From NCBI RefSeq assembly GCF_044324785.1, contig NZ_CP172127.1: a stretch of 64,000 bases of DNA. The stretch is one strand, 5' to 3'. This document shows, one piece after another, positions 8,670 through 25,952 of the stretch (its first letter is position 1; each line of letters opens with the position of its first letter). This DNA is from Escherichia coli. Its GTDB lineage: Bacteria > Pseudomonadota > Gammaproteobacteria > Enterobacterales > Enterobacteriaceae. Under the pieces are notes generated by a model, which was not told the origin of the DNA, searched no databases, and worked only from the letters and a program-made list of their open reading frames with translations. The position numbers and the translations under genes are program-made.

Positions 8670-9128
8670 TTAGCGTCTGGCTGGATAATGTTGGATGCTG
8701 GATTCCAGATTTGCCAGGATCAAAGCGACATCGGCATCCGCCAAACGAAATTCCGCCTGCCATATATTCTCTGACGTATGAAATGTAGGGCATAGCCCGC
8801 AAGCCAGTATCACTTTGATAATAATGACATCACCGGAATACCCTGTGTATTCGAACTCCAGGCATGGCTCGGTAAATTCCAGATTTTTCTCCGGGTAGCC
8901 ATCGGGAGAAGGGCGCTGCAACAATGTGGTAAACCACCTATGAAGCTTTGTTAAGTCATATGTCCCTATTGCCGGATCTATCTTTTCAAACCGCTGATTT
9001 CCCTGCGTCACGCCCACTTTGAGGAATAACCAGTTACCATCCCAGAAATTACTGGCATCAGGATACTGATACCCCATAACATCCAGCGTCAAAGTAACGG
9101 CCAGCTCACTATTGCTTAACGTAATCAT
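8670..9128 (-). CDS. Hypothetical 152-aa protein (candidate accessory gene between pldA and recQ)
   Basis: Intact ORF MITLSNSELAVTLTLDVMGYQYPDASNFWDGNWLFLKVG...; no signal peptide or transmembrane segment seen; does not match any protein I recognise; sits between two core genes. Confidence 0.55.
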   Translation of the reverse strand: MITLSNSELAVTLTLDVMGYQYPDASNFWDGNWLFLKVGVTQGNQRFEKIDPAIGTYDLTKLHRWFTTLLQRPSPDGYPEKNLEFTEPCLEFEYTGYSGDVIIIKVILACGLCPTFHTSENIWQAEFRLADADVALILANLESSIQHYPARR

Positions 9129-11714: not shown

Positions 11715-12095
11715 ATGTTACGTATGTTTATCCCAACATCTAATGGTAAGATTTCCAGACGCCGTTATATATTTTCATTTATTTTAATAAATTTCATTTT
11801 TGCCTTTCTTATTATCTTTTTTAACGATGGGGAAGCAGATTTTCTTGTTATAGTCTCTACCATCGTACTCCATTATCTCGTCATCAACTTGAATTGCCAA
11901 CGACTCCGTGATAGTGGTTTCGTCTATATAAAAACTTATGTTTTTGGTACATTAGCAGTATATATCATCTCTATCATCACAATGATAGCCGAAGATTTTG
12001 CCTGTTCAGGCAATGGTTCGATGATTTTTTTGATTTGTTATTTTTCCACTTTCAGTATGCTAATGCTTGCACCTACTGATTCATCAAAACAATAG
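11715..12095 (+). CDS. yigF: Small inner membrane protein (DUF805-like RRLxDxG motif)
   Basis: 126-aa product from [20 protein letters not shown]... with two hydrophobic segments and the motif NCQRLRDSG; AT-rich; Shine-Dalgarno 'aagga' upstream of ATG 11715. Confidence 0.75.
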
Positions 12096-12108
12096 TTATG
12101 GAGTATTT

Positions 12109-12489
12109 ATGAGTAAGGAATATATGAACGATGGTTCATTAAGTGAAAAATGGAAATACCGATTTAATTTTTATGATCAACATGGCTTTCCAGGATTCTG
12201 GGGGGCAACACCAGAATATAAAGCAGCATTTAAAACATTAAAAGTAAGACAACGATTAACTATTCAAATGAATTTCATTGCTTTCTTCTGTTCCTGGATC
12301 TATTTATTTGTTCTGGGATTATGGAAAAAAGCAATTATAGTTCTATTACTTGGCATTCTATCTCTATTTGTTGGTGCACTAATTGGCGTTAACATTCTGG
12401 GAATTGCCGTAGCAGCCTATGTTGCTGTTAACACGAACAAATGGTTTTATGAGAAAGAGGTAAAAGGGTTAAATACCTGGAGCCTTTGA
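12109..12489 (+). CDS. yigG: Small inner membrane protein
   Basis: 126-aa product from MSKEYMNDGSLSEKWKYRFNFYDQHGF... with two hydrophobic helices; AT-rich. Confidence 0.75.
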   Translation: MSKEYMNDGSLSEKWKYRFNFYDQHGFPGFWGATPEYKAAFKTLKVRQRLTIQMNFIAFFCSWIYLFVLGLWKKAIIVLLLGILSLFVGALIGVNILGIAVAAYVAVNTNKWFYEKEVKGLNTWSL

Positions 12490-12496
12490 ATAACAG

Positions 12497-12530
12497 GTGG
12501 CTTAGCCAGGCTAAGCCACCGCCTTCTTTT
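12497..12530 (+). terminator. Intrinsic terminator after yigG (bidirectional hairpin at the ancestral yigG/corA junction)
   Basis: Stem 'ggtggcttagcc / ggctaagccacc' followed by 'gccttctttt'. Confidence 0.65.
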
Positions 12531-12679
12531 TACAACCAGTTCTTCCGCTTAAAGTACAGATACGGTGCCAGGCCCGCGAGGATCATAAAGATAATCGCGC
12601 CAGGGTAGCCGAAACTCCACTTCAGTTCCGGCATAAACTCAAAGTTCATGCCATAGCTGGAGGCAATCCGCGTAGGAAA
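12530..12679 (-). pseudogene. corA: Displaced 3'-terminal fragment of corA (last ~48 codons, no start)
   Basis: ~150 bp that is a near copy of corA 14241..14390 (identical over the first 70 bp, a handful of mostly silent mismatches afterwards, then diverging); encodes ...[44 protein letters not shown], identical to the CorA C-terminus. The 67-aa ORF 12530..12733 is this fragment fused to unrelated upstream sequence. Confidence 0.85.
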
Positions 12680-12856
12680 AAGTTTCCTAATCGGTAAATT
12701 CAACATTTTGTTATTAACAATGAGCAAGACCAATCATTAACGACGTTCTCTTCAGAGATGTAATGAAAAAATGTGAAGTGTACTTCTTTTCTAAATATTT
12801 TTTTACCCTAGCATTTGTTCTCGAATTGATATTGAGCTTAAATATAACTAAGGCAA

Positions 12857-13711
12857 ATGCAAATGAATAACATATTACTTCCGCCAATTAATATTCCCTG
12901 TACACTTTTCGAAACTATTAGTTTATTCGATGATTTTTCTGCTGATGATATGCAATATGGTGATATGGTAGAACAAGACTTTCTCTCACTCGGCCTAAGC
13001 GATATCTCAGCAAAAGTTGATCCTTACCGACTTATTAAATACCATTTCCCTGGCCCAGGTTCTATTAATGTTGCTTTTAGTGCCTCAAGTTCCGGAACAA
13101 AAATATCACAACGTGAATGCACTGATATTTTATTTGCAGAAATGAAAGAACTAGCAAAAATGTTTTCCTTTTTTGGACAATATAAAACACTTATCGAAGA
13201 TCTGATTGAAAATTTTAGATATGGAAATGGCAGCAATTTTCATAGCCAACAATTAAATTTATCTTTTCATGAAAAAATAAATAAATATGGTTATAATAGT
13301 CCAATACGAATAATCAAAGAATGTATCGAAAATGGCATTAATTCAACTCCCTCGACAGGATACCAACCTCTTATCCTGCAAAGCATTAAAACCAAATTAC
13401 TTTCATCAAGACTAAATAAATTTAATGACTTCAAGGACAGTTTTAATGGCTTAGGAATCAGTGTTCATGATATTTCAGCTCAAAAAATATCTCTTTTAAG
13501 TTTTCAAAAATACGCTATAGGATGGAGTGCAACAATTCATTTTGTAGCACAGGACCACTTCGGTCTCGATGTAACTGATATCAAAAACAAGACTTATAGC
13601 AAATATAGATTTTTTCGCATATGGTTCTTTTTACAACGGCATAAAGACTTTGCTTTCAAACCTTTTTTCACCAATTTTAACACTATAGAAAGAATCGAAA
13701 ATTATCTATGA
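12857..13711 (+). CDS. Hypothetical 284-aa protein, no signal peptide (candidate toxin/effector or defence protein of an inserted cassette)
   Basis: Intact ORF in strongly AT-rich DNA; better Shine-Dalgarno spacing suggests the second ATG (12863, MNNILLPP...) may be the start; contains a Cys (QRECTD) and downstream His residues (SVHDIS, TIHFVAQDHFGLD); stop overlaps the start of the next ORF. Confidence 0.65.
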   Translation: MQMNNILLPPINIPCTLFETISLFDDFSADDMQYGDMVEQDFLSLGLSDISAKVDPYRLIKYHFPGPGSINVAFSASSSGTKISQRECTDILFAEMKELAKMFSFFGQYKTLIEDLIENFRYGNGSNFHSQQLNLSFHEKINKYGYNSPIRIIKECIENGINSTPSTGYQPLILQSIKTKLLSSRLNKFNDFKDSFNGLGISVHDISAQKISLLSFQKYAIGWSATIHFVAQDHFGLDVTDIKNKTYSKYRFFRIWFFLQRHKDFAFKPFFTNFNTIERIENYL

Positions 13712-14199
13712 AAAGCAAACTCCAGAAAATTATATTATGTTTATTTCTTCTATGCTGCATCTATAATTTATGGACATTGCGTCCTGTACAGATTTTGTAT
13801 ACATACTCTGATGCTGGCAATTCAGTCTTTCTGGTCGTTGATCATCTGCCATGGACTGACAGCGATAAAATAAATTGGTATCTGAAGCATCAGAATGAAA
13901 TTAAAAATCAACATCCCCTACCAGAAGGTAGTTGGCATACCTGGTATGTCATTGATATCGGTAATGGCTTCACTGACTATAAAAAATATATTGAAGGGCC
14001 GTATGAAGATCTCTACTGTTTCCCGACAATTAAGAGCAATGATAATTGCATCGTGAAAAATTACTTAATGGTTATTAATGAATACCCTTATCGTAACACT
14101 CATATTGGTATTAACGATTTTACTGAGTATCAATTAACACAAGAAAATAAAATAGAGCGAGTTTTCAATCCGCATGACTTTAAAAAAGACAATTTTTAG
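13708..14199 (+). CDS. Hypothetical 163-aa protein with N-terminal signal/anchor segment (candidate immunity or partner protein)
   Basis: MKSKLQKIILCLFLLCCIYNLWTL... hydrophobic N-terminus; start ATG overlaps the upstream stop (ATGA at 13708..13711), implying translational coupling; AT-rich. Confidence 0.65.
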   Translation: MKSKLQKIILCLFLLCCIYNLWTLRPVQILYTYSDAGNSVFLVVDHLPWTDSDKINWYLKHQNEIKNQHPLPEGSWHTWYVIDIGNGFTDYKKYIEGPYEDLYCFPTIKSNDNCIVKNYLMVINEYPYRNTHIGINDFTEYQLTQENKIERVFNPHDFKKDNF

Positions 14200-14205
14200 A
14201 AATAA

Positions 14206-14233
14206 GCCGGATAAAAAAATAGCTTTATCCGGC
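14206..14233. terminator. Hairpin between convergent cassette ORF and corA (putative bidirectional terminator)
   Basis: Inverted repeat 'gccggataaa ... tttatccggc' with an A-rich loop. Confidence 0.5.
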
Positions 14234-14240
14234 ACTCATA

Positions 14241-15191
14241 TTACAACCAGTTCTTCCGCTTAAAGTACAGATACGGTGCCAGGCCCGCGAGGATCATAAA
14301 GATAATCGCGCCTGGGTAGCCGAAACTCCACTTCAGTTCTGGCATAAACTCAAAGTTCATCCCGTAGCTGGAAGCAACCAGCGTCGGTGGCAGGAACACC
14401 ACGGATACCACCGAGAAGATTTTGATGATGCGGTTCTGCTCGATGTTGATAAAGCCCATAGCCGCCTGCATCAGGAAGTTCACCTTCTGGAACAGGGATT
14501 CGTTATGCGGCAGCAGGGATTCGATATCTCGCAGGATTTCACGCGCCTGCTCCAGTTGCCCACCCGGTAAGCGTGCTTTACGTACCAGGAAGTTGAGCGC
14601 GCGCTGGGTATCCATCAGACACAGGCGAACTTTCCAGCCGATATCTTCCAGTTCCGCCAGCGTGGAGAGCGCCTCGTCGTACTCATCGCCCTGATGCCCT
14701 TCCATAATTACCCGGCTCAACTGCTCCAGGTCGCTGTAGATATTTTCAATTTCATCTGCCAACTGTTCGATTTTGGTTTCGAACAGATCCAGCAGCAGCT
14801 CGTAGGCATTACCGTCTACCATCGACTGGCTACGGGCACGCATACGATACAGACGGAATGCAGGCAATTCACGCTCACGCAGAGTAAACAGACGACCATC
14901 ACGGATGGTAAATGCCACAGTGGAGTTACCGGCGTGATCTTCCGCATCTTCAAAGAAGAAGAAGGAGTGAATATGCAGGCCGTCATCGTCTTCAAAGAAA
15001 CGTGCCGATGCTTCGATGTCTTCCAGTTCCGGGCGGGTTGCCAGGCTCTGGCCAAGTTCAGATTGTACGCGCAGTCGCTCGTCGTCGTCCGGTTCGACAA
15101 GATCAATCCATACTGCATTTACAAGGGGTTGTGACTCTTCGACTTCCAGCCGGGTCAGTCGGTTATTTTCCAGTTGAAATGCGCTCAGCAT
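14241..15191 (-). CDS. corA: Mg2+/Co2+ transporter CorA
   Basis: Start placed at [31 protein letters not shown]... (316 aa); C-terminal GMN motif ([11 protein letters not shown]); 'cat' at 15189..15191. Confidence 0.93.
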
Positions 15192-16407: not shown

Positions 16408-17310
16408 ATGAAAAAAACGCTCGCAACGTTATTTTTATTAACGTGTCTGGGATCATCATCCGCTTATGCGGATAACGCTTTGATTTTACAAACTGATTTT
16501 AGCCTGAAAGATGGTGCCGTCTCGGCGATGAAAGGGGTCGCATTCGGTGTTGACCATAATCTTAAAATATTTGATTTAACACACGAAATTCCACCGTATA
16601 ACATCTGGGAAGGCGCTTACCGCCTGTATCAGACCGCCAGTTACTGGCCGCAAGGTTCGGTATTTGTCAGTGTGGTCGATCCTGGTGTTGGTACAGACCG
16701 TAAATCGGTAGTGCTGAAAACCAAAAACGGTCAATACTTCGTTTCACCAGATAACGGTACGCTCACTTTGGTGGCACAAACTCTGGGTATTGATAGCGTC
16801 CGGGAAATCGACGAAAAAGCTAACCGCCTGAAAGGTTCTGAAAAGTCATATACCTTCCACGGTCGTGACGTGTATGCCTACACCGGTGCGCGTCTGGCTT
16901 CCGGGGCGATTACGTTCGAACAGGTGGGGCCAGAGCTTCCTGCAAAAGTTGTCGAACTTTCTTATCAGAAAGCAAAAGCAACAAAAGGTGAAGTGAAGGG
17001 CAATATCCCGATTCTCGATATTCAGTACGGCAACGTCTGGAGCAATATCAGCGACGAGTTGCTGAATCAGGCAGGAATCAAACTCAACGACACGTTGTGT
17101 GTGACCATTTCCGAAGGTTCCCAGCAAAAATACGCAGGGAAAATGCCGTATGTCGCAAGCTTCGGCGATGTGCCGGAAGGCCAGCCGATGGTGTATCTGA
17201 ACAGCTTGTTGAATGTTTCCGTGGCGCTGAATATGGATAATTTTGCGCAGAAACATCAGGTTGCGTCTGGTGCTGACTGGAATATTGATGTGAAGAAGTG
17301 CGCTAAGTAA
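16408..17310 (+). CDS. SAM hydroxide adenosyltransferase (DUF62) family protein with N-terminal signal peptide
   Basis: 300-aa ORF; signal peptide MKKTLATLFLLTCLGSSSAYA; then LILQTDFSLKDGAVSAMKGVAFGVD...THEIPPYNI...VSVVDPGVGTDRKSVVLKTKNGQYFVSPDNGTL, which matches the DUF62 N-domain pattern as I remember it. Confidence 0.7.
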   Translation: MKKTLATLFLLTCLGSSSAYADNALILQTDFSLKDGAVSAMKGVAFGVDHNLKIFDLTHEIPPYNIWEGAYRLYQTASYWPQGSVFVSVVDPGVGTDRKSVVLKTKNGQYFVSPDNGTLTLVAQTLGIDSVREIDEKANRLKGSEKSYTFHGRDVYAYTGARLASGAITFEQVGPELPAKVVELSYQKAKATKGEVKGNIPILDIQYGNVWSNISDELLNQAGIKLNDTLCVTISEGSQQKYAGKMPYVASFGDVPEGQPMVYLNSLLNVSVALNMDNFAQKHQVASGADWNIDVKKCAK

Positions 17311-23136: not shown

Positions 23137-24645
23137 GTGATCGGCACCTCGCGCCAGGATGGCTTTATGCACTATCGCAATGTGGTTTGTTTGTTGTCTT
23201 GTTCGTTGTTTTTATCGTCGGCATGGGGATGTCGGCTTTCCGCGCCTGAACATAATATTTACCAGAAACAGGGAAAAGGCGTGGTATACCTGCGCCCTTA
23301 TAAAGAAACAAATCTTTCTCTTCCTGACGTGAATTACAAAAGTTTGCGTCGGTTACCCAATTTATTAATAGACCCGACAACACTAGACGAATGGGATAAA
23401 GAACCGCCTCTGACTGATTTGACAACCGACTACCTCTATGAAGGCGCACAGGCCTGGTATCCTCATTACTCCTGGCATAGCGATGGTCGCTATATCCTTT
23501 ACGCGGGTGAAGTTGTGCAAAACCCGCCAGACAAACCTCCCGTCGATGTCGCCTCGTTCAAGGCGTGGGGTGATTTTGCCGCAGATAAACACAGTCTCTA
23601 TTTCGAAGGCAAGCGCACCGATAACAATGGCGGGGGAAATAGCTTAGATATCAAAACACTGCATCAGGTGGAATTCCGGCCTCCCTGGAAACCTGACTTA
23701 CTGGGGCTGATATTACGTGACGCTAATTTCTTATATATCAATGGGCATCGCCTCGCTGACCCCGAGAGTTTCCGTGTGCTGGCGCAGAAGTCCTGGGATC
23801 AGCGAGGAAAGTTTTCTACCGCGTTTAATCCCTGTGTGGCTATGCCATTTGGCCCCTGGGATACCCTGGCTCGTACACGGACCAAAATCCTGATCAACGG
23901 CGAACAGCTTGATGCCGACCCGGACACCTTTTCCGTCGTGCGCTGGATGCCCGGCTCACTCTTGACCTGGCGTGATAAAAACGGGCTACAGCGTAAAGTC
24001 CTCGACAAGGAAAATCTGGCGTGGGATGAAGATTTAACAAAGCACTGTCTGGATTTTTCTCTGCTGGAAAAGAAAGTGTTCTGGCGTAAAGGGCCTGACT
24101 GTAAACAGGAAGAGTTACCGGGGCTCGATCCTGAACAGTTCCACCCCATCAGTGATGCTGTCGCCCAGTATCAGGATTCGCTTTATACCATCATCGAAAC
24201 AGAGTCTGGTGACCGCAAGCTGGAGATCGTGAAACTTGATGATCCCAATCTTATTATCAACAAACGTTTCAACGCCGGGAAACGCCACGGCTATTTACTT
24301 ACGCGTGCCGAAGGGTGGCCATACCATTCCGGTTTACACGTGTTTGAATCTGACGGACCGCTGATCTTACTGGATAACCGCTCTCCGGATGAACGCGAAG
24401 CCCATCTTAATGACCATCCCTTTTTGCGCAGATGGTATGCCCGCGATAACCGCTACATTTACAGCTTTGATGGCGCGCAGCTCTGGCGATACCGCATCGC
24501 TGATCCGAAACAAGTTCGCTTAATCTGGAAGGAACAACATTCGGGATATGGCTATGGCGTAAATTACAAAACGGGATATCTGGACGGAAAAATTACTGAT
24601 GACGGCGAATTTATTCCTGCCCCGCGCAATGAGGCGACAAAATGA
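23137..24645 (+). CDS. Secreted repeat protein (DKNYY-like repeats), first of a tandem paralogue pair
   Basis: 502-aa ORF (an alternative start at 23167, MHYRNVVCLLSCSLFLSSAWGC..., gives a signal-like N-terminus); recurring motifs DKHSLYFEGKR, DANFLYINGHRL, DNRYIYSFDG; collinear similarity to the downstream ORF. Confidence 0.65.
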   Translation: MIGTSRQDGFMHYRNVVCLLSCSLFLSSAWGCRLSAPEHNIYQKQGKGVVYLRPYKETNLSLPDVNYKSLRRLPNLLIDPTTLDEWDKEPPLTDLTTDYLYEGAQAWYPHYSWHSDGRYILYAGEVVQNPPDKPPVDVASFKAWGDFAADKHSLYFEGKRTDNNGGGNSLDIKTLHQVEFRPPWKPDLLGLILRDANFLYINGHRLADPESFRVLAQKSWDQRGKFSTAFNPCVAMPFGPWDTLARTRTKILINGEQLDADPDTFSVVRWMPGSLLTWRDKNGLQRKVLDKENLAWDEDLTKHCLDFSLLEKKVFWRKGPDCKQEELPGLDPEQFHPISDAVAQYQDSLYTIIETESGDRKLEIVKLDDPNLIINKRFNAGKRHGYLLTRAEGWPYHSGLHVFESDGPLILLDNRSPDEREAHLNDHPFLRRWYARDNRYIYSFDGAQLWRYRIADPKQVRLIWKEQHSGYGYGVNYKTGYLDGKITDDGEFIPAPRNEATK

Positions 24646-25952
24646 AGGGTCAAATAATCACAGTTGCACTCATCCTGTTGGGGCACACATTTCTGACACC
24701 TGCTGTACAGGCCATAGAGTTCGACTATTACAATGATCACGGTGTCATGTCTTACGGTAAAGGTTATTGGGGGGATAAGAAAATCATTGCCCAATTTCCG
24801 AAGATGAACAGGGCCGATTTGCGCCTTGTGAAAAATATATCCGGGGAGACGGATTATATACCTTCCGATGAAATGAGCATAAAAAATGAGGAATACCACT
24901 GGGTGACAGACGGCCACGTTATTCTCTGGCGTGGCAAAATCGTTAGCAATCCACCGGGAACACCCACTGTCGATATTGCCAGCTTTCAGGCTATGGGCCG
25001 CTTCGCGGTCGATAAATATAGCCTCTATTTTGACGGACAGCGCACCGAAAGTAATAGCGGCGCGTCACGTGTTGATCTGGCGACACTAAAAGCTATCGAA
25101 GGTAACTCTACCACGCTGGTGGATAGTAAAAATCTCTACTTGTCCGGTAGACGTCAGGGGAGCAGCAGTAATGTTACTGTATTAGAAAAAAGATGGTGGG
25201 GTATTAATCCACGTCTTATGAGTGTAAACAGAAATTTGTATTCCAATGATCTGCTTATCCGCAGTGGGCAGAATATTTATTTAAATGGCGTTCACCTTAC
25301 GGCGAATGCAGACTCATTTGAGATAATTCGCTGGATACCTCATTCACTGCTGGTTTTTCGCGATAATAAGGGTATGCATCGTTATCCCTTTGGGCAATTG
25401 TCTGGCAAAGCGATACCCGTAGATGATGACGTCTCTTTTGAAGTAGGAGAAAGTCGCGTTCGCTGGCGTAAACAGCTCACGCCCGACCGTCAGTGGAGCA
25501 AGTGGATAGACCTACCAGGTATTGAACCTGAACAATTCCATCTGATTACTGGCAATATTGCGCAATATAAAGATCGGTTGTATGTAACAAAATTATCGAC
25601 ATTTGGTGAAGACCAGCTTGAGATAATCCCGCTGGATACGCCAGACCTGGTCATTGATCGCTCATTTAATAGCGGCAAACAGCATGCTTATTTTATCCGC
25701 CAATTACGGTCAAAGAGCGTGCAAATTATTCCAGTTAACGGTCCGCTAACTAAAAACGATCGCTTCGCTTATGACGATCGCAATGTTTATACATGGACCG
25801 ATACAGAGGTAAGGATTACGCCCTCCCCCTGCCCGGCGAAAACACGCGTCAGAGAAGAGAATGTGCGTGAACTTCACAACAGAGACATTATTATTCCGTT
25901 GACGGATGAATCATGCCAGAACGCAGCAGACGAGCAAACTTTGAAGCCCTGA
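24642..25952 (+). CDS. Secreted repeat protein (DKNYY-like repeats), second of the tandem paralogue pair
   Basis: 436-aa ORF with signal peptide MKGQIITVALILLGHTFLTPAVQA; start overlaps the upstream stop (ATGA); motifs DKYSLYFDGQR, DSKNLYLSGRR, QNIYLNGVHL, DRNVYTW. Confidence 0.65.
   Translation: MKGQIITVALILLGHTFLTPAVQAIEFDYYNDHGVMSYGKGYWGDKKIIAQFPKMNRADLRLVKNISGETDYIPSDEMSIKNEEYHWVTDGHVILWRGKIVSNPPGTPTVDIASFQAMGRFAVDKYSLYFDGQRTESNSGASRVDLATLKAIEGNSTTLVDSKNLYLSGRRQGSSSNVTVLEKRWWGINPRLMSVNRNLYSNDLLIRSGQNIYLNGVHLTANADSFEIIRWIPHSLLVFRDNKGMHRYPFGQLSGKAIPVDDDVSFEVGESRVRWRKQLTPDRQWSKWIDLPGIEPEQFHLITGNIAQYKDRLYVTKLSTFGEDQLEIIPLDTPDLVIDRSFNSGKQHAYFIRQLRSKSVQIIPVNGPLTKNDRFAYDDRNVYTWTDTEVRITPSPCPAKTRVREENVRELHNRDIIIPLTDESCQNAADEQTLKP

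What the first reader, a model, noticed from the sequence alone, without database searches (positions are those of the whole stretch)
12530..14394. Two-gene AT-rich cassette inserted at the 3' end of corA, bounded by an imperfect ~150-bp direct repeat of the corA terminus
The last ~150 bp of corA occur twice in direct orientation: 12530..~12679, next to the yigG terminator, and 14241..~14390, the 3' end of the intact gene. The two copies are identical over the first 70 bp, then carry scattered, mostly silent mismatches before diverging, and both encode the same CorA C-terminal peptide. That pattern looks like two diverged corA alleles rather than a recent duplication. Between them lie ~1.5 kb of visibly AT-rich DNA (roughly one-third G+C by eye, against about half in flanking core genes) with two translationally coupled ORFs and their own promoter-like and terminator-like sequences. 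This is the footprint of an element that integrated into the 3' end of corA and restored the gene with its own copy of the terminus, as att-site integrative elements do. No integrase, transposase or inverted repeats are present, so it is either a decayed element or a cassette acquired by homologous recombination. My recollection is that the K-12 yigG-corA junction lacks this block.
Basis: partly seen in the sequence, partly recalled or inferred. Interest (0 to 1): 0.85.

Follow-up and report, generated by a model that had tools for sequence, protein, structure and literature searches.

The report
Orphan T6SS toxin-immunity pair beside corA
The AT-rich block is a known kind of bacterial weapon cassette (a DUF3289 type VI secretion toxin plus its DUF943 immunity gene), and the duplicated corA end is most likely the scar where two alternative versions of the same chromosomal interval were joined by recombination, not the footprint of a mobile element.

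Summary
The last 147 nt of corA occur twice in direct orientation (12530-12676 and 14241-14387), 139/147 identical, with the first 72 nt identical. They flank 1.56 kb of 32% G+C DNA carrying two overlapping ORFs. K-12 lacks the block.

The ORFs are a full-length DUF3289/YPO3983 protein and a DUF943 protein. Published work describes these as a periplasm-acting T6SS effector and its membrane-anchored immunity protein.

The integrative-element reading is only partly right:
- There is no integrase, transposase or inverted repeat.
- The same cassette sits between rarD and corA with no corA duplication in Salmonella, in an Enterobacter-like contig and in 930 E. coli genomes.
- An Enterobacter genome has an independent compound locus: yigF-corA'(267 nt)|rarD'(207 nt)-cassette-corA.

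The rarD-corA interval therefore has alternative fillers: yigG-yigF, a variant module "X", or the cassette. Here two fillers lie in tandem, and corA' marks the join, probably made by one illegitimate join plus homologous recombination.

Among 5426 complete E. coli genomes, about 50% lack the cassette and 49% carry it. Only 298 have exactly this arrangement.

The block is a new member of a known kind, of moderate interest.

The parts
11715..12489 (+). yigG (11715-12095) and yigF (12109-12489). This is the alternative 'filler' of the rarD-corA interval. Both are small AT-rich membrane-protein genes.
   Evidence: ORFs. NCBIfam PRK11371 for YigG. N3 annotation names yigG and yigF/DUF2628. G+C is 0.345. 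YigF relatives are confined to Escherichia, Superficieibacter and an Enterobacter sp..
12496..12520 (.). Bidirectional hairpin terminator between yigF and the corA' fragment. It is the native corA/yigF terminator of the K-12-type allele.
   Evidence: Terminator scan scores it on both strands. It is colinear with the K-12 yigF-corA junction.
12530..12676 (-). corA' : truncated copy of the last 147 nt of corA (repeat copy A), the join scar.
   Evidence: PGAP annotates it as a pseudogene in strain N3. All ten sampled fragments share the same inner end (G133, T138, A145), which points to a single origin.
12677..12693 (+). 17-nt stretch between corA' and the cassette flank. It is probably the last bases of a yigG 5' remnant inherited from a cassette-type allele.
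   Evidence: It matches yigG 11786-11802 at 11/17 in the register fixed by the flanking homology. Only 0.2% of positions in the AT-rich region match as well. The match is compatible with the 78-86% identity of the adjacent flank between allele classes.
12694..12862 (+). Cassette upstream non-coding region. A promoter is presumed here but not demonstrated.
   Evidence: It is homologous to the region upstream of DUF3289 in State-2 E. coli, and partly to the Salmonella equivalent by eye (sequence). No consensus sigma-70 site was found.
12863..13711 (+). DUF3289 / YPO3983-family protein, 282 aa, intact: predicted periplasm-acting T6SS effector.
13708..14199 (+). DUF943 protein, 163 aa, with an N-terminal hydrophobic anchor: predicted cognate immunity protein. 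Its start overlaps the effector stop (ATGA).
   Evidence: Pfam PF06092, E 1.8e-26. The N-terminus is MKSKLQKIILCLFLLCCIYNLW. The ATGA overlap is shown. PMC11148199 demonstrates DUF943 immunity and the same membrane topology.
14206..14233 (-). REP-like hairpin that serves as the terminator of the intact corA in cassette-type alleles.
   Evidence: Terminator scan, minus strand. A similar GCCGGAT...ATCCGGC hairpin lies at the same place in Salmonella arizonae, by eye in the sequence.
14241..15191 (-). Intact corA. Its last 147 nt (14241-14387) are repeat copy B.
   Evidence: ORF. The protein is identical to WP_000947159.1. Repeat shown.

Best explanation
**What it is.** Window 12694-14240 is an orphan type VI secretion effector-immunity cassette.
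- ORF1 is a stand-alone DUF3289 toxin. Its family acts in the periplasm and has been proposed to be colicin-M-like and to attack the cell wall.
- ORF2 is its DUF943 immunity protein, anchored in the inner membrane and facing the periplasm. The two are co-translated through an ATGA overlap.
- Cells carrying the pair would inject the toxin into neighbours through a T6SS encoded elsewhere, and would be protected from sister cells by the immunity protein. This step is inferred.

**How the architecture arose.** The rarD-corA interval is a hypervariable slot with alternative occupants in Enterobacteriaceae. The occupants are yigG-yigF, a diverged yigG-like module 'X', or the DUF3289-DUF943 cassette. 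In this genome two occupants lie in tandem.
- A cassette-type allele (yigG 5' remnant, cassette, corA) was joined to a yigG-yigF-type allele. One illegitimate join fell 147 nt inside corA and 16-17 nt inside the yigG remnant.
- One homologous exchange then occurred in or beyond corA. This is either homology-facilitated illegitimate recombination or single-crossover integration of a circularised fragment of the homologous locus.
- The truncated corA' is the join scar. No site-specific recombinase is involved.

**Consequences.** The 147-nt repeat is a substrate for RecA-dependent loss of the cassette, which would regenerate a K-12-like site. corA' also acts as an anchor for swapping the left-hand module (yigG-yigF <-> X).

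**Shown:** family membership, anatomy, population states, and the independent Enterobacter replicate.

**Inferred:** the order of events, T6SS delivery in this strain, and the biochemical target.
For: **Function**
- Pfam and NCBIfam give full-length matches.
- DUF3289 was toxic in the E. coli periplasm and was neutralised by DUF943 (PMC11148199).
- An orphan DUF3289 effector was shown to be T6SS-secreted and T6SS-delivered in Aeromonas jandaei (PMC12135965).

**Architecture: states among 5426 complete E. coli genomes**
- Cassette present: 2632.
- corA'-cassette junction: 1707.
- yigG'-cassette junction without corA': 930.
- Empty K-12-type junction: 2717.
- Exactly this arrangement: 298.
- X module: 1431.

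**Architecture: other taxa**
- Salmonella has rarD-DUF3289-DUF943-corA with no corA' in 9 of 10 contexts. The DNA is homologous to E. coli.
- An Enterobacter-like contig has the same arrangement.
- Enterobacter sp. E76 has rarD-yigG-like-yigF-corA'(267 nt)|rarD'(207 nt)-cassette-corA. Its right half is colinear with the cassette-only locus of a relative. This is an independent join of the same two allele types at different breakpoints.
- E. albertii and Superficieibacter carry yigG-yigF only.

**Architecture: junction detail**
- Homology of State-2 genomes to the window resumes exactly where corA' ends. It runs through a 17-mer that matches the yigG remnant 11/17, with an empirical chance of 0.2%.
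- Each repeat copy carries the SNP typical of its allele class at position 73.
- State-4 fragments differ from corA almost only at synonymous sites, so they came from functional corA genes.
- The window holds no integrase, IS or inverted repeats.
Against: - **Order of events is not resolved.** The yigG'-cassette form (State 2) could instead be a deletion derivative of the compound form. In that case the 11/17 match would be the microhomology used for the deletion, not inherited homology.
- **Comparative sampling is small.** About 25 sequenced loci were compared, and they are phylogenetically non-independent. The RefSeq genome set is clinically biased.
- **No T6SS genes lie in the 64-kb window**. 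I did not establish that this strain has a T6SS.
- **No promoter was detected upstream of the effector**.
- **A test for repeat-mediated cassette loss was inconclusive.** It looked for a chimeric corA end in an X-remnant genome lacking the cassette.
Confidence: 0.6

Rival explanations
1. This is the primary-insertion model, a version of the reader's second option. The ancestral Escherichia locus was rarD-yigG-yigF-corA. The cassette, carrying a corA 3' end from a donor, entered by a single crossover in corA and created the compound form first. The cassette-only E. coli form (State 2) arose later by deletion of yigG(3')-yigF-corA'. The K-12 form is either ancestral or a revertant through the repeat.
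For: - State-2 genomes retain a 51-bp yigG 5' remnant, so they descend from a yigG-bearing locus.
- E. albertii and Superficieibacter have yigG-yigF only.
- The innermost 15 nt of corA' carry 4 changes found in no intact corA, as expected if that end came from a diverged donor copy.
Against: - It needs the 11/17 match at the State-2 junction to be coincidental microhomology. The longest exact run is only 4 nt.
- It does not explain why cassette-only loci are the rule in Salmonella and occur in an Enterobacter-like lineage.
- The E76 locus shows that the right-hand unit can start with rarD', that is, with a whole alternative allele.
Confidence: 0.2
2. This is a decayed site-specific integrative element that used the corA 3' end as attB and carried a replacement terminus, as e14 and phage 21 do at icd. 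Its integrase has since been lost.
For: A direct repeat of a gene's 3' end flanks AT-rich foreign-looking DNA. The empty site in K-12 is precise. The gene is restored by the copy adjoining the insert.
Against: - The window holds no integrase or excisionase remnant; the only recombinase is the core gene xerC.
- The insert is only 1.56 kb and consists entirely of the two genes and their flanks.
- The same cassette sits at the same locus without any repeat in Salmonella, in an Enterobacter-like contig and in 930 E. coli genomes.
- The independent Enterobacter compound has a different repeat length (267 nt) plus a rarD' fragment, which no att mechanism predicts.
- No true plasmid carries the whole cassette.
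Confidence: 0.05
3. An in-situ tandem duplication of the whole rarD-corA interval formed first, with its join point inside corA. One copy's content was later replaced by the cassette through ordinary homologous recombination with a cassette-type donor.
For: The E76 junction corA'|rarD' looks exactly like a tandem-duplication join point, and both fragments are 97% identical to the resident genes.
Against: It needs more steps. In E. coli the right unit starts at most 17 nt before the cassette flank, not in rarD. Tandem duplications are unstable without selection.
Confidence: 0.08
4. This is a functional rival. The pair is not used as a T6SS weapon in this lineage. It is kept mainly for the immunity gene, as defence against DUF3289-armed competitors, or it behaves as a T6SS-independent toxin-immunity or addiction module.
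For: - In Salmonella the effector is often truncated or missing while DUF943 is kept.
- An E. coli State-2 genome has a frameshifted effector and an intact immunity gene.
- No T6SS genes are near the cassette.
- State-2 and State-3/4 alleles share near-identical immunity genes, although the first roughly 240 codons of the effector differ by about 15%.
Against: The effector here is full length, with all family-invariant residues alignable. Orphan DUF3289 effectors encoded far from T6SS clusters are secreted by the T6SS in Aeromonas (PMC12135965).
Confidence: 0.2

Closest known systems
DUF3289-DUF943 T6SS effector-immunity pairs. Examples are T6EC1/T6IC1 of Yersinia pseudotuberculosis (PMC11148199), the orphan DUF3289 effector of Aeromonas jandaei (PMC12135965), and BtpeA-BtpiA of Bacteroides fragilis (PDB 9jdi).
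   Same: The Pfam and NCBIfam families are the same. The gene order is effector then immunity. The immunity protein has an N-terminal membrane anchor. The predicted fold matches the solved DUF3289 effector. Like the Aeromonas case, it is encoded away from any T6SS cluster.
   Different: The protein here is a stand-alone 282-aa DUF3289. It has no PAAR, PIX or WHIX delivery domain. Secretion, toxicity and target have not been tested for this E. coli allele. Sequence identity to the solved structure is only 23%.
e14 and phage 21 integration into the icd gene of E. coli. These elements insert in the 3' end of icd, supply an alternative 3' terminus and leave a displaced icd' fragment. This example is from my own knowledge and was not looked up here.
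   Same: The layout is intact core gene, foreign DNA, then a displaced truncated 3' end as a direct repeat of about 150 nt with mostly silent differences.
   Different: e14 and phage 21 encode an integrase and are 10-40 kb prophage elements. Here there is no recombinase. The 'insert' is the alternative allele of the same locus, and the cassette exists at the locus without any repeat in other lineages.
Tandem-duplication join points, Campbell-type merodiploids and homology-facilitated illegitimate recombination. This is general bacterial genetics, from my own knowledge.
   Same: Two versions of one interval lie head to tail, separated by a novel junction between the 3' part of one flanking gene and the other edge of the interval. 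In E76 the junction is corA'|rarD'. In E. coli it is corA'|yigG'.
   Different: The two units carry different gene content and have been stably inherited in about 31% of sequenced E. coli. They are not a transient duplication.
Orphan toxin-tip and immunity arrays of Rhs, CdiA and other polymorphic toxin loci.
   Same: Recombination at conserved sequence displaces older modules and leaves truncated fragments. Arrays of DUF3289 C-terminal fragments with extra DUF943 genes do exist in Trabulsiella and Huaxiibacter.
   Different: In the window the displaced fragment belongs to the neighbouring housekeeping gene corA, not to the toxin gene.
Colicin M and colicin-M-like bacteriocins (PaeM, pectocin M1), which are lipid II-degrading phosphodiesterases.
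   Different: The similarity in my test is weak. There is no receptor-binding or translocation domain. I could not align the colicin M catalytic motif. The biochemical activity is unproven.

Membership tests
DUF3289 / YPO3983 T6SS effector family | Full-length match to the family profile above the curated threshold | tested here: met
   PF11692, E 3.8e-83, model positions 2-270 of 272. TIGR03034, 435.8 bits against a cut-off of 156.45.
DUF3289 / YPO3983 T6SS effector family | Fold of a solved family member | tested here: met
DUF3289 / YPO3983 T6SS effector family | Cognate immunity gene immediately downstream: DUF943 with an N-terminal membrane anchor | tested here: met
   PF06092, E 1.8e-26. 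ATGA overlap. The hydrophobic N-terminus spans residues 7-24 by eye, the same topology as T6IC1 in PMC11148199.
DUF3289 / YPO3983 T6SS effector family | T6SS-dependent secretion and T6SS-dependent killing of prey that lack immunity | not testable with these tools
   This needs wet-lab assays. No T6SS genes lie in the window, and the rest of the genome was not available.
Colicin M-like lipid II phosphodiesterases | Shared catalytic fold and motif | tested here: inconclusive
Integrase-mediated (att-site) integrative element or genomic island | Tyrosine or serine recombinase gene, or a remnant, inside or beside the element | tested here: not met
   The ORF list and the N3 annotation of the whole window show only the core gene xerC, at about 20.3-21.2 kb.
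Integrase-mediated (att-site) integrative element or genomic island | Direct repeats of the target at both ends, and a precise empty site in related genomes | tested here: met
   147-nt repeat. K-12 has a precise empty site.
Integrase-mediated (att-site) integrative element or genomic island | The cargo is found at the locus only together with the att repeats | tested here: not met
   The cassette is present without any corA duplication in 930 E. coli genomes, in Salmonella and in an Enterobacter-like contig.
IS element or transposon | Terminal inverted repeats, transposase, short target-site duplication | tested here: not met
   No terminal inverted repeats at the cassette ends. No transposase ORF.
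Anti-phage defence system (PADLOC families) | Match to a defence-system protein profile | tested here: not met
   No PADLOC hit for either ORF or for the corA' ORF.

The most novel reading that the evidence does not exclude
The rarD-corA interval may be a long-lived balanced polymorphism spanning several genera, in which alternative small-membrane-protein and toxin-immunity modules are maintained. In that reading, truncated ends of the flanking core genes (corA', and rarD' in Enterobacter) are retained because they act as built-in recombination handles. These handles would let lineages flip between armed and unarmed states and swap modules. A bolder variant is that the conserved 67-codon corA' reading frame (GMN motif plus TM2) is expressed and modulates CorA, or that yigG, yigF and X are themselves orphan immunity-like proteins.
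Probability: 0.12. Interest if true: 0.55.

Novelty: new member of a known kind. Interest (0 to 1): 0.35.

Why it matters
- **Function for about half of sequenced E. coli.** It assigns a concrete, testable function, a periplasm-acting T6SS toxin with its immunity protein, to a two-gene block carried by about half of sequenced E. coli, including O157:H7, O104:H4 and O111. K-12 lacks the block.
- **A caution for annotation.** A duplicated gene end flanking AT-rich DNA need not mean a mobile element. Here it marks a join between two alleles of a hypervariable core-genome slot.
- **Distribution.** The slot has at least four structural states in E. coli, with counterparts in Salmonella and Enterobacter. 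In Salmonella and some E. coli the effector has decayed while the immunity gene is retained.
- **Use as a model.** The locus is a tractable natural system for studying how interbacterial weapons and immunity genes are gained, lost and exchanged by homologous recombination. The 147-nt repeat predicts a measurable RecA-dependent loss rate.

Tried and rejected
- **Transposon or IS origin.** No terminal inverted repeats and no transposase.
- **Integrase-bearing island.** None in the 64 kb.
- **tRNA-linked island.** The nearest tRNAs are about 23 kb away.
- **Plasmid origin.** In PLSDB, only two mislabelled chromosome-size records carry the cassette. A further 51 plasmids (IncHI1-type such as pHCM1 and R27) carry only a 93-bp tail next to an IS1-captured corA.
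- **Partial cassette hits in E. coli chromosomes (H29, H30).** These are IS1 rearrangements, not a further state.
- **Non-coding RNA.** No Rfam family in 10.5-16.5 kb.
- **Anti-phage defence.** No PADLOC hits.
- **Own promoter.** No consensus sigma-70 site in 12677-12862.
- **My recollection that Salmonella has yigF/yigG at this locus.** None of 10 Salmonella contexts has them.
- **Test for repeat-mediated cassette loss.** I looked for a chimeric corA end in an E. coli contig with an X remnant next to intact corA. It was inconclusive.
- **Colicin M homology.** Only weak support in my fold searches.
- **Species representatives.** The genome-contig scan found the cassette at corA only in Salmonella arizonae and diarizonae among species representatives. 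The other hits (Enterobacter asburiae, Trabulsiella, Huaxiibacter, Serratia) are at other loci.
- **Not done.** Viral and metagenome collections were not scanned.
Full report
**1. The observation**

The reported repeat is real. The repeat finder gives one 152-nt direct-repeat family, 12525-12676 and 14236-14387, at 93%. The part derived from corA is 12530-12676 versus 14241-14387. It is 139/147 identical, with mismatches at nt 73, 100, 121, 124, 133, 138, 140 and 145 counted from the stop codon. The first 72 nt are identical. BLAST E is 4e-63, and the window holds no third copy.

Copy B is the end of an intact 316-codon corA on the minus strand (14241-15191). Copy A is a truncated corA'.

The 1.56 kb between them is 32% G+C, against 51-53% for rarD and corA. 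It holds two ORFs, 12863-13711 and 13708-14199, that overlap by ATGA.

K-12 MG1655 has corA, 42 bp with a hairpin, then yigF, and nothing else. The K-12 sequence maps to window 12059-12666 and to 14241 onward, with 137 nt mapping twice.

- The gene beside copy A is yigF (12109-12489), not yigG (11715-12095).
- yigG-yigF are as AT-rich as the cassette (0.345), so the whole rarD-corA interval is low in G+C.
- The consensus scan finds no sigma-70-like site upstream of ORF1. The hairpin at 14206-14233 scores as a terminator only for corA.

**2. What the two genes are**

ORF1 is a full-length member of Pfam DUF3289 (E 3.8e-83) and of NCBIfam TIGR03034, 'YPO3983 family' (436 bits against a cut-off of 156). 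ORF2 is DUF943 (E 1.8e-26) and has a hydrophobic N-terminus.

The literature on these families:
- DUF3289 from Yersinia pseudotuberculosis is toxic when sent to the E. coli periplasm. It rounds the cells and is neutralised by the adjacent DUF943 protein, which has a 7-26 transmembrane anchor and a periplasmic body. The authors proposed a colicin-M-like fold (PMC11148199).
- An orphan DUF3289 protein of Aeromonas jandaei was found in the T6SS-dependent secretome. It behaved as a genuine effector-immunity pair in competition assays (PMC12135965).
- Klebsiella T6SS loci link the same two families (PMC12469244).

No T6SS genes lie in the window.

**3. The locus in E. coli has at least four states**

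I searched 5426 complete E. coli genomes with junction-specific queries.

| State | Arrangement | Genomes |
|---|---|---|
| Cassette present (any state) | at least 80% of the cassette | 2632 |
| State 1 | rarD-yigG-yigF-corA, K-12-type empty junction | 2717 |
| State 2 | rarD, 51-bp yigG 5' remnant, cassette, corA; no yigF, no corA' | 930 |
| States 3 + 4 | corA'-cassette junction | 1707 |
| State 3 | exactly the window's arrangement, yigF-terminator-corA'-cassette | 298 |
| State 4 | about 980-bp module 'X' replaces yigG-yigF left of corA' | about 1409 |

- State 1 includes about 560 genomes with a roughly 88% diverged yigG-yigF allele.
- X holds a distant YigG relative plus a 104-codon ORF, and occurs in 1431 genomes overall. 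State 4 includes O157:H7.
- A few genomes have corA next to rarD, with only an X remnant between them (L032).
- PGAP already annotates corA' as a partial CorA pseudogene.

**4. Other genera**

- **Salmonella.** In S. enterica arizonae and diarizonae the order is yigI-rarD-DUF3289-DUF943-corA. The DNA is homologous to the window from inside ORF1 through corA, 78% over 2.6 kb. A look-up of contigs encoding the Salmonella CorA protein gave the same order in 9 of 10 distinct contexts. The effector was often truncated or missing while DUF943 was kept. One context had corA directly next to rarD. None had yigF, yigG or corA'. This contradicted my own recollection of the Salmonella map.
- **yigF-bearing relatives.** YigF relatives are essentially confined to Escherichia, Superficieibacter and one Enterobacter sp.; the next relatives are at 40-45% in Pseudomonas. 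E. albertii and Superficieibacter have rarD-yigG-yigF-corA.
- **Enterobacter-like contig.** It has rarD-cassette-corA.
- **Enterobacter sp. E76.** It has rarD, yigG-like, yigF, corA' (last 267 nt, 97% to its own corA), rarD' (last 207 nt, 97% to its own rarD), DUF3289, DUF943, corA. The segment from rarD' rightward is colinear with the cassette-only locus of the related contig.

The E76 locus is the key result. It is an independent head-to-tail join of a yigGF-type allele, cut inside corA, to a cassette-type allele, cut inside rarD.

**5. Reading the E. coli junction**

- All ten corA' fragments examined share the same inner end (G133, T138, A145, then the same non-corA sequence). The join therefore happened once.
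- The outer part of the fragment varies with what lies to its left. It is E. coli-like next to yigF. In most sampled State-4 genomes, next to X, it is up to 9% diverged, almost entirely at synonymous sites. So it was copied from functional corA genes, and corA' has since served as a homology anchor for swapping the left-hand module.
- Position 73 is T in all 15 intact corA ends that adjoin a cassette. It is A in 9 of 10 fragments and in 4 of 6 cassette-free genomes. Each repeat copy thus carries the signature of its own allele class. These samples are not independent.
- Homology of State-2 genomes to the window resumes exactly where corA' stops (12677). The first 17 nt match the end of the yigG remnant at 11/17, in a register fixed by the flanking alignment. 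Only 0.2% of positions in the AT-rich region match as well. This level is compatible with the 78-86% identity of the adjoining flank between allele classes.

The simplest reading is that the right-hand unit of the compound locus is a cassette-type allele truncated 16-17 nt inside its yigG remnant. The left-hand unit is a yigGF-type allele truncated 147 nt inside corA.

One illegitimate join plus one homologous exchange in or beyond corA gives this product. The route could be homology-facilitated illegitimate recombination or a single crossover with a circularised fragment.

I cannot exclude the reverse order, compound form first and State 2 by later deletion. In that case the 11/17 match would be the microhomology used for the deletion.

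**6. Mosaicism**

State-2 and State-3/4 cassettes are 78-91% identical from 12677 to about 13577. That span covers the flank and the first 240 or so codons of the effector. From there through the immunity gene and corA they are 95-100% identical. One State-2 genome encodes an immunity protein identical to the window's. Recombination therefore also shuffles within the cassette.

**7. Mechanism, with status**

- Shown by family membership and by published experiments on relatives: ORF1 is a periplasm-acting antibacterial toxin domain, and ORF2 is its membrane-anchored immunity protein.
- Inferred: in this strain ORF1 is loaded as a cargo effector onto a T6SS encoded elsewhere. It has no PAAR, PIX or WHIX domain.
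- Inferred from a weak structural relationship: the target is a cell-wall precursor.
- Inferred: the 147-nt repeat allows RecA-dependent loss of the cassette to give a K-12-like site. The one natural test I could make was inconclusive.

**8. Comparison, novelty and score**

The cassette is a member of a known effector-immunity family. The layout resembles e14 and phage 21 at icd (my own knowledge), but it fails the defining tests for an integrative element. There is no recombinase, and the cargo is present at the locus without repeats in other lineages. It also resembles tandem-duplication join points.

I found no paper in the held library that describes this locus. The gene functions are known and the corA' pseudogene is already annotated. 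What is new is modest: the multi-state, multi-genus polymorphism of the rarD-corA slot, and the recurrent heteroallelic joins.

I rate it a new member of a known kind, with interest about 0.35.

Noticed in passing
window 8670-9128 (-): A 152-codon ORF lies between recQ and pldA. PGAP calls it 'WapI family immunity protein' in the near-identical strain N3. K-12 has only a 132-bp gap here. It may be another orphan immunity gene in a core intergenic slot. My NCBIfam and PADLOC scans gave no hit.
   Followed up: partly
window 16408-17310 (+): A 300-codon ORF lies between yigE and uvrD and is absent from K-12. It gives below-threshold matches to (R)-SAM hydrolase and fluorinase families. It is present, split or absent among E. 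coli contexts.
   Followed up: partly
window 23137-25952 (+): Two ORFs (about 500 and 436 codons) lie between lptM and cyaY. They are annotated in strain N3 as 'DKNYY family protein' and 'hypothetical', with no NCBIfam hit. To my recollection K-12 has no genes here; I did not check this.
   Followed up: no
window 14143-14235; L046 (pHCM1) 2596-2688; L003, L004: 51 plasmids carry an IS1-adjacent copy of E. coli corA-ysgD that still has the last 93 bp of the DUF943 gene and its terminator. They are mostly conjugative, and include Salmonella Typhi pHCM1 and R27. The captured chromosomal segment therefore came from a cassette-bearing E. coli. The same IS1-corA unit occurs in some E. coli chromosomes.
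   Followed up: partly
L008 1385-2345 (O157:H7) and 1431 E. coli genomes: Module 'X' replaces yigG-yigF, and even the last 11 bp of rarD, in about a quarter of E. coli. It encodes a 128-aa distant YigG relative (not annotated by PGAP) and a 104-aa membrane-like ORF on the other strand.
   Followed up: partly
L019 (E. coli strain 4/4), L041 (E. albertii): yigG-yigF themselves have deeply diverged alleles within E. coli. YigF is about 69-70% identical in protein, the same allele type as in E. albertii. About 560 genomes fall in the 80-90% DNA identity band. The whole interval is far more diverse than its flanks.
   Followed up: partly
L021-L030 (Salmonella), L007 (E. coli MS10858): The effector gene is frequently degraded (63-, 154- and 225-codon pieces, a frameshift, or absence) while the DUF943 immunity gene stays intact. 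This suggests immunity-only retention.
   Followed up: partly
L015 (Trabulsiella guamensis), L013 (Huaxiibacter chinensis), L048: At other loci there are arrays of DUF3289-DUF943 pairs interspersed with DUF3289 C-terminal fragments and extra DUF943 genes. They are reminiscent of the orphan toxin-tip and immunity arrays of Rhs and CDI systems.
   Followed up: no
window 12530-12733 (-): The corA' fragment sits in a 67-codon open frame (TTG start) that keeps the GMN motif and TM2 of CorA. The frame is also open in O157:H7. I did not assess whether it is ever expressed.
   Followed up: no
window 13577 (inside ORF1): There is a recombination breakpoint between allele classes. Upstream, State-2 and State-3/4 effectors differ by about 15%. 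Downstream, the effector C-terminus, the immunity gene and corA are 95-100% identical.
   Followed up: partly
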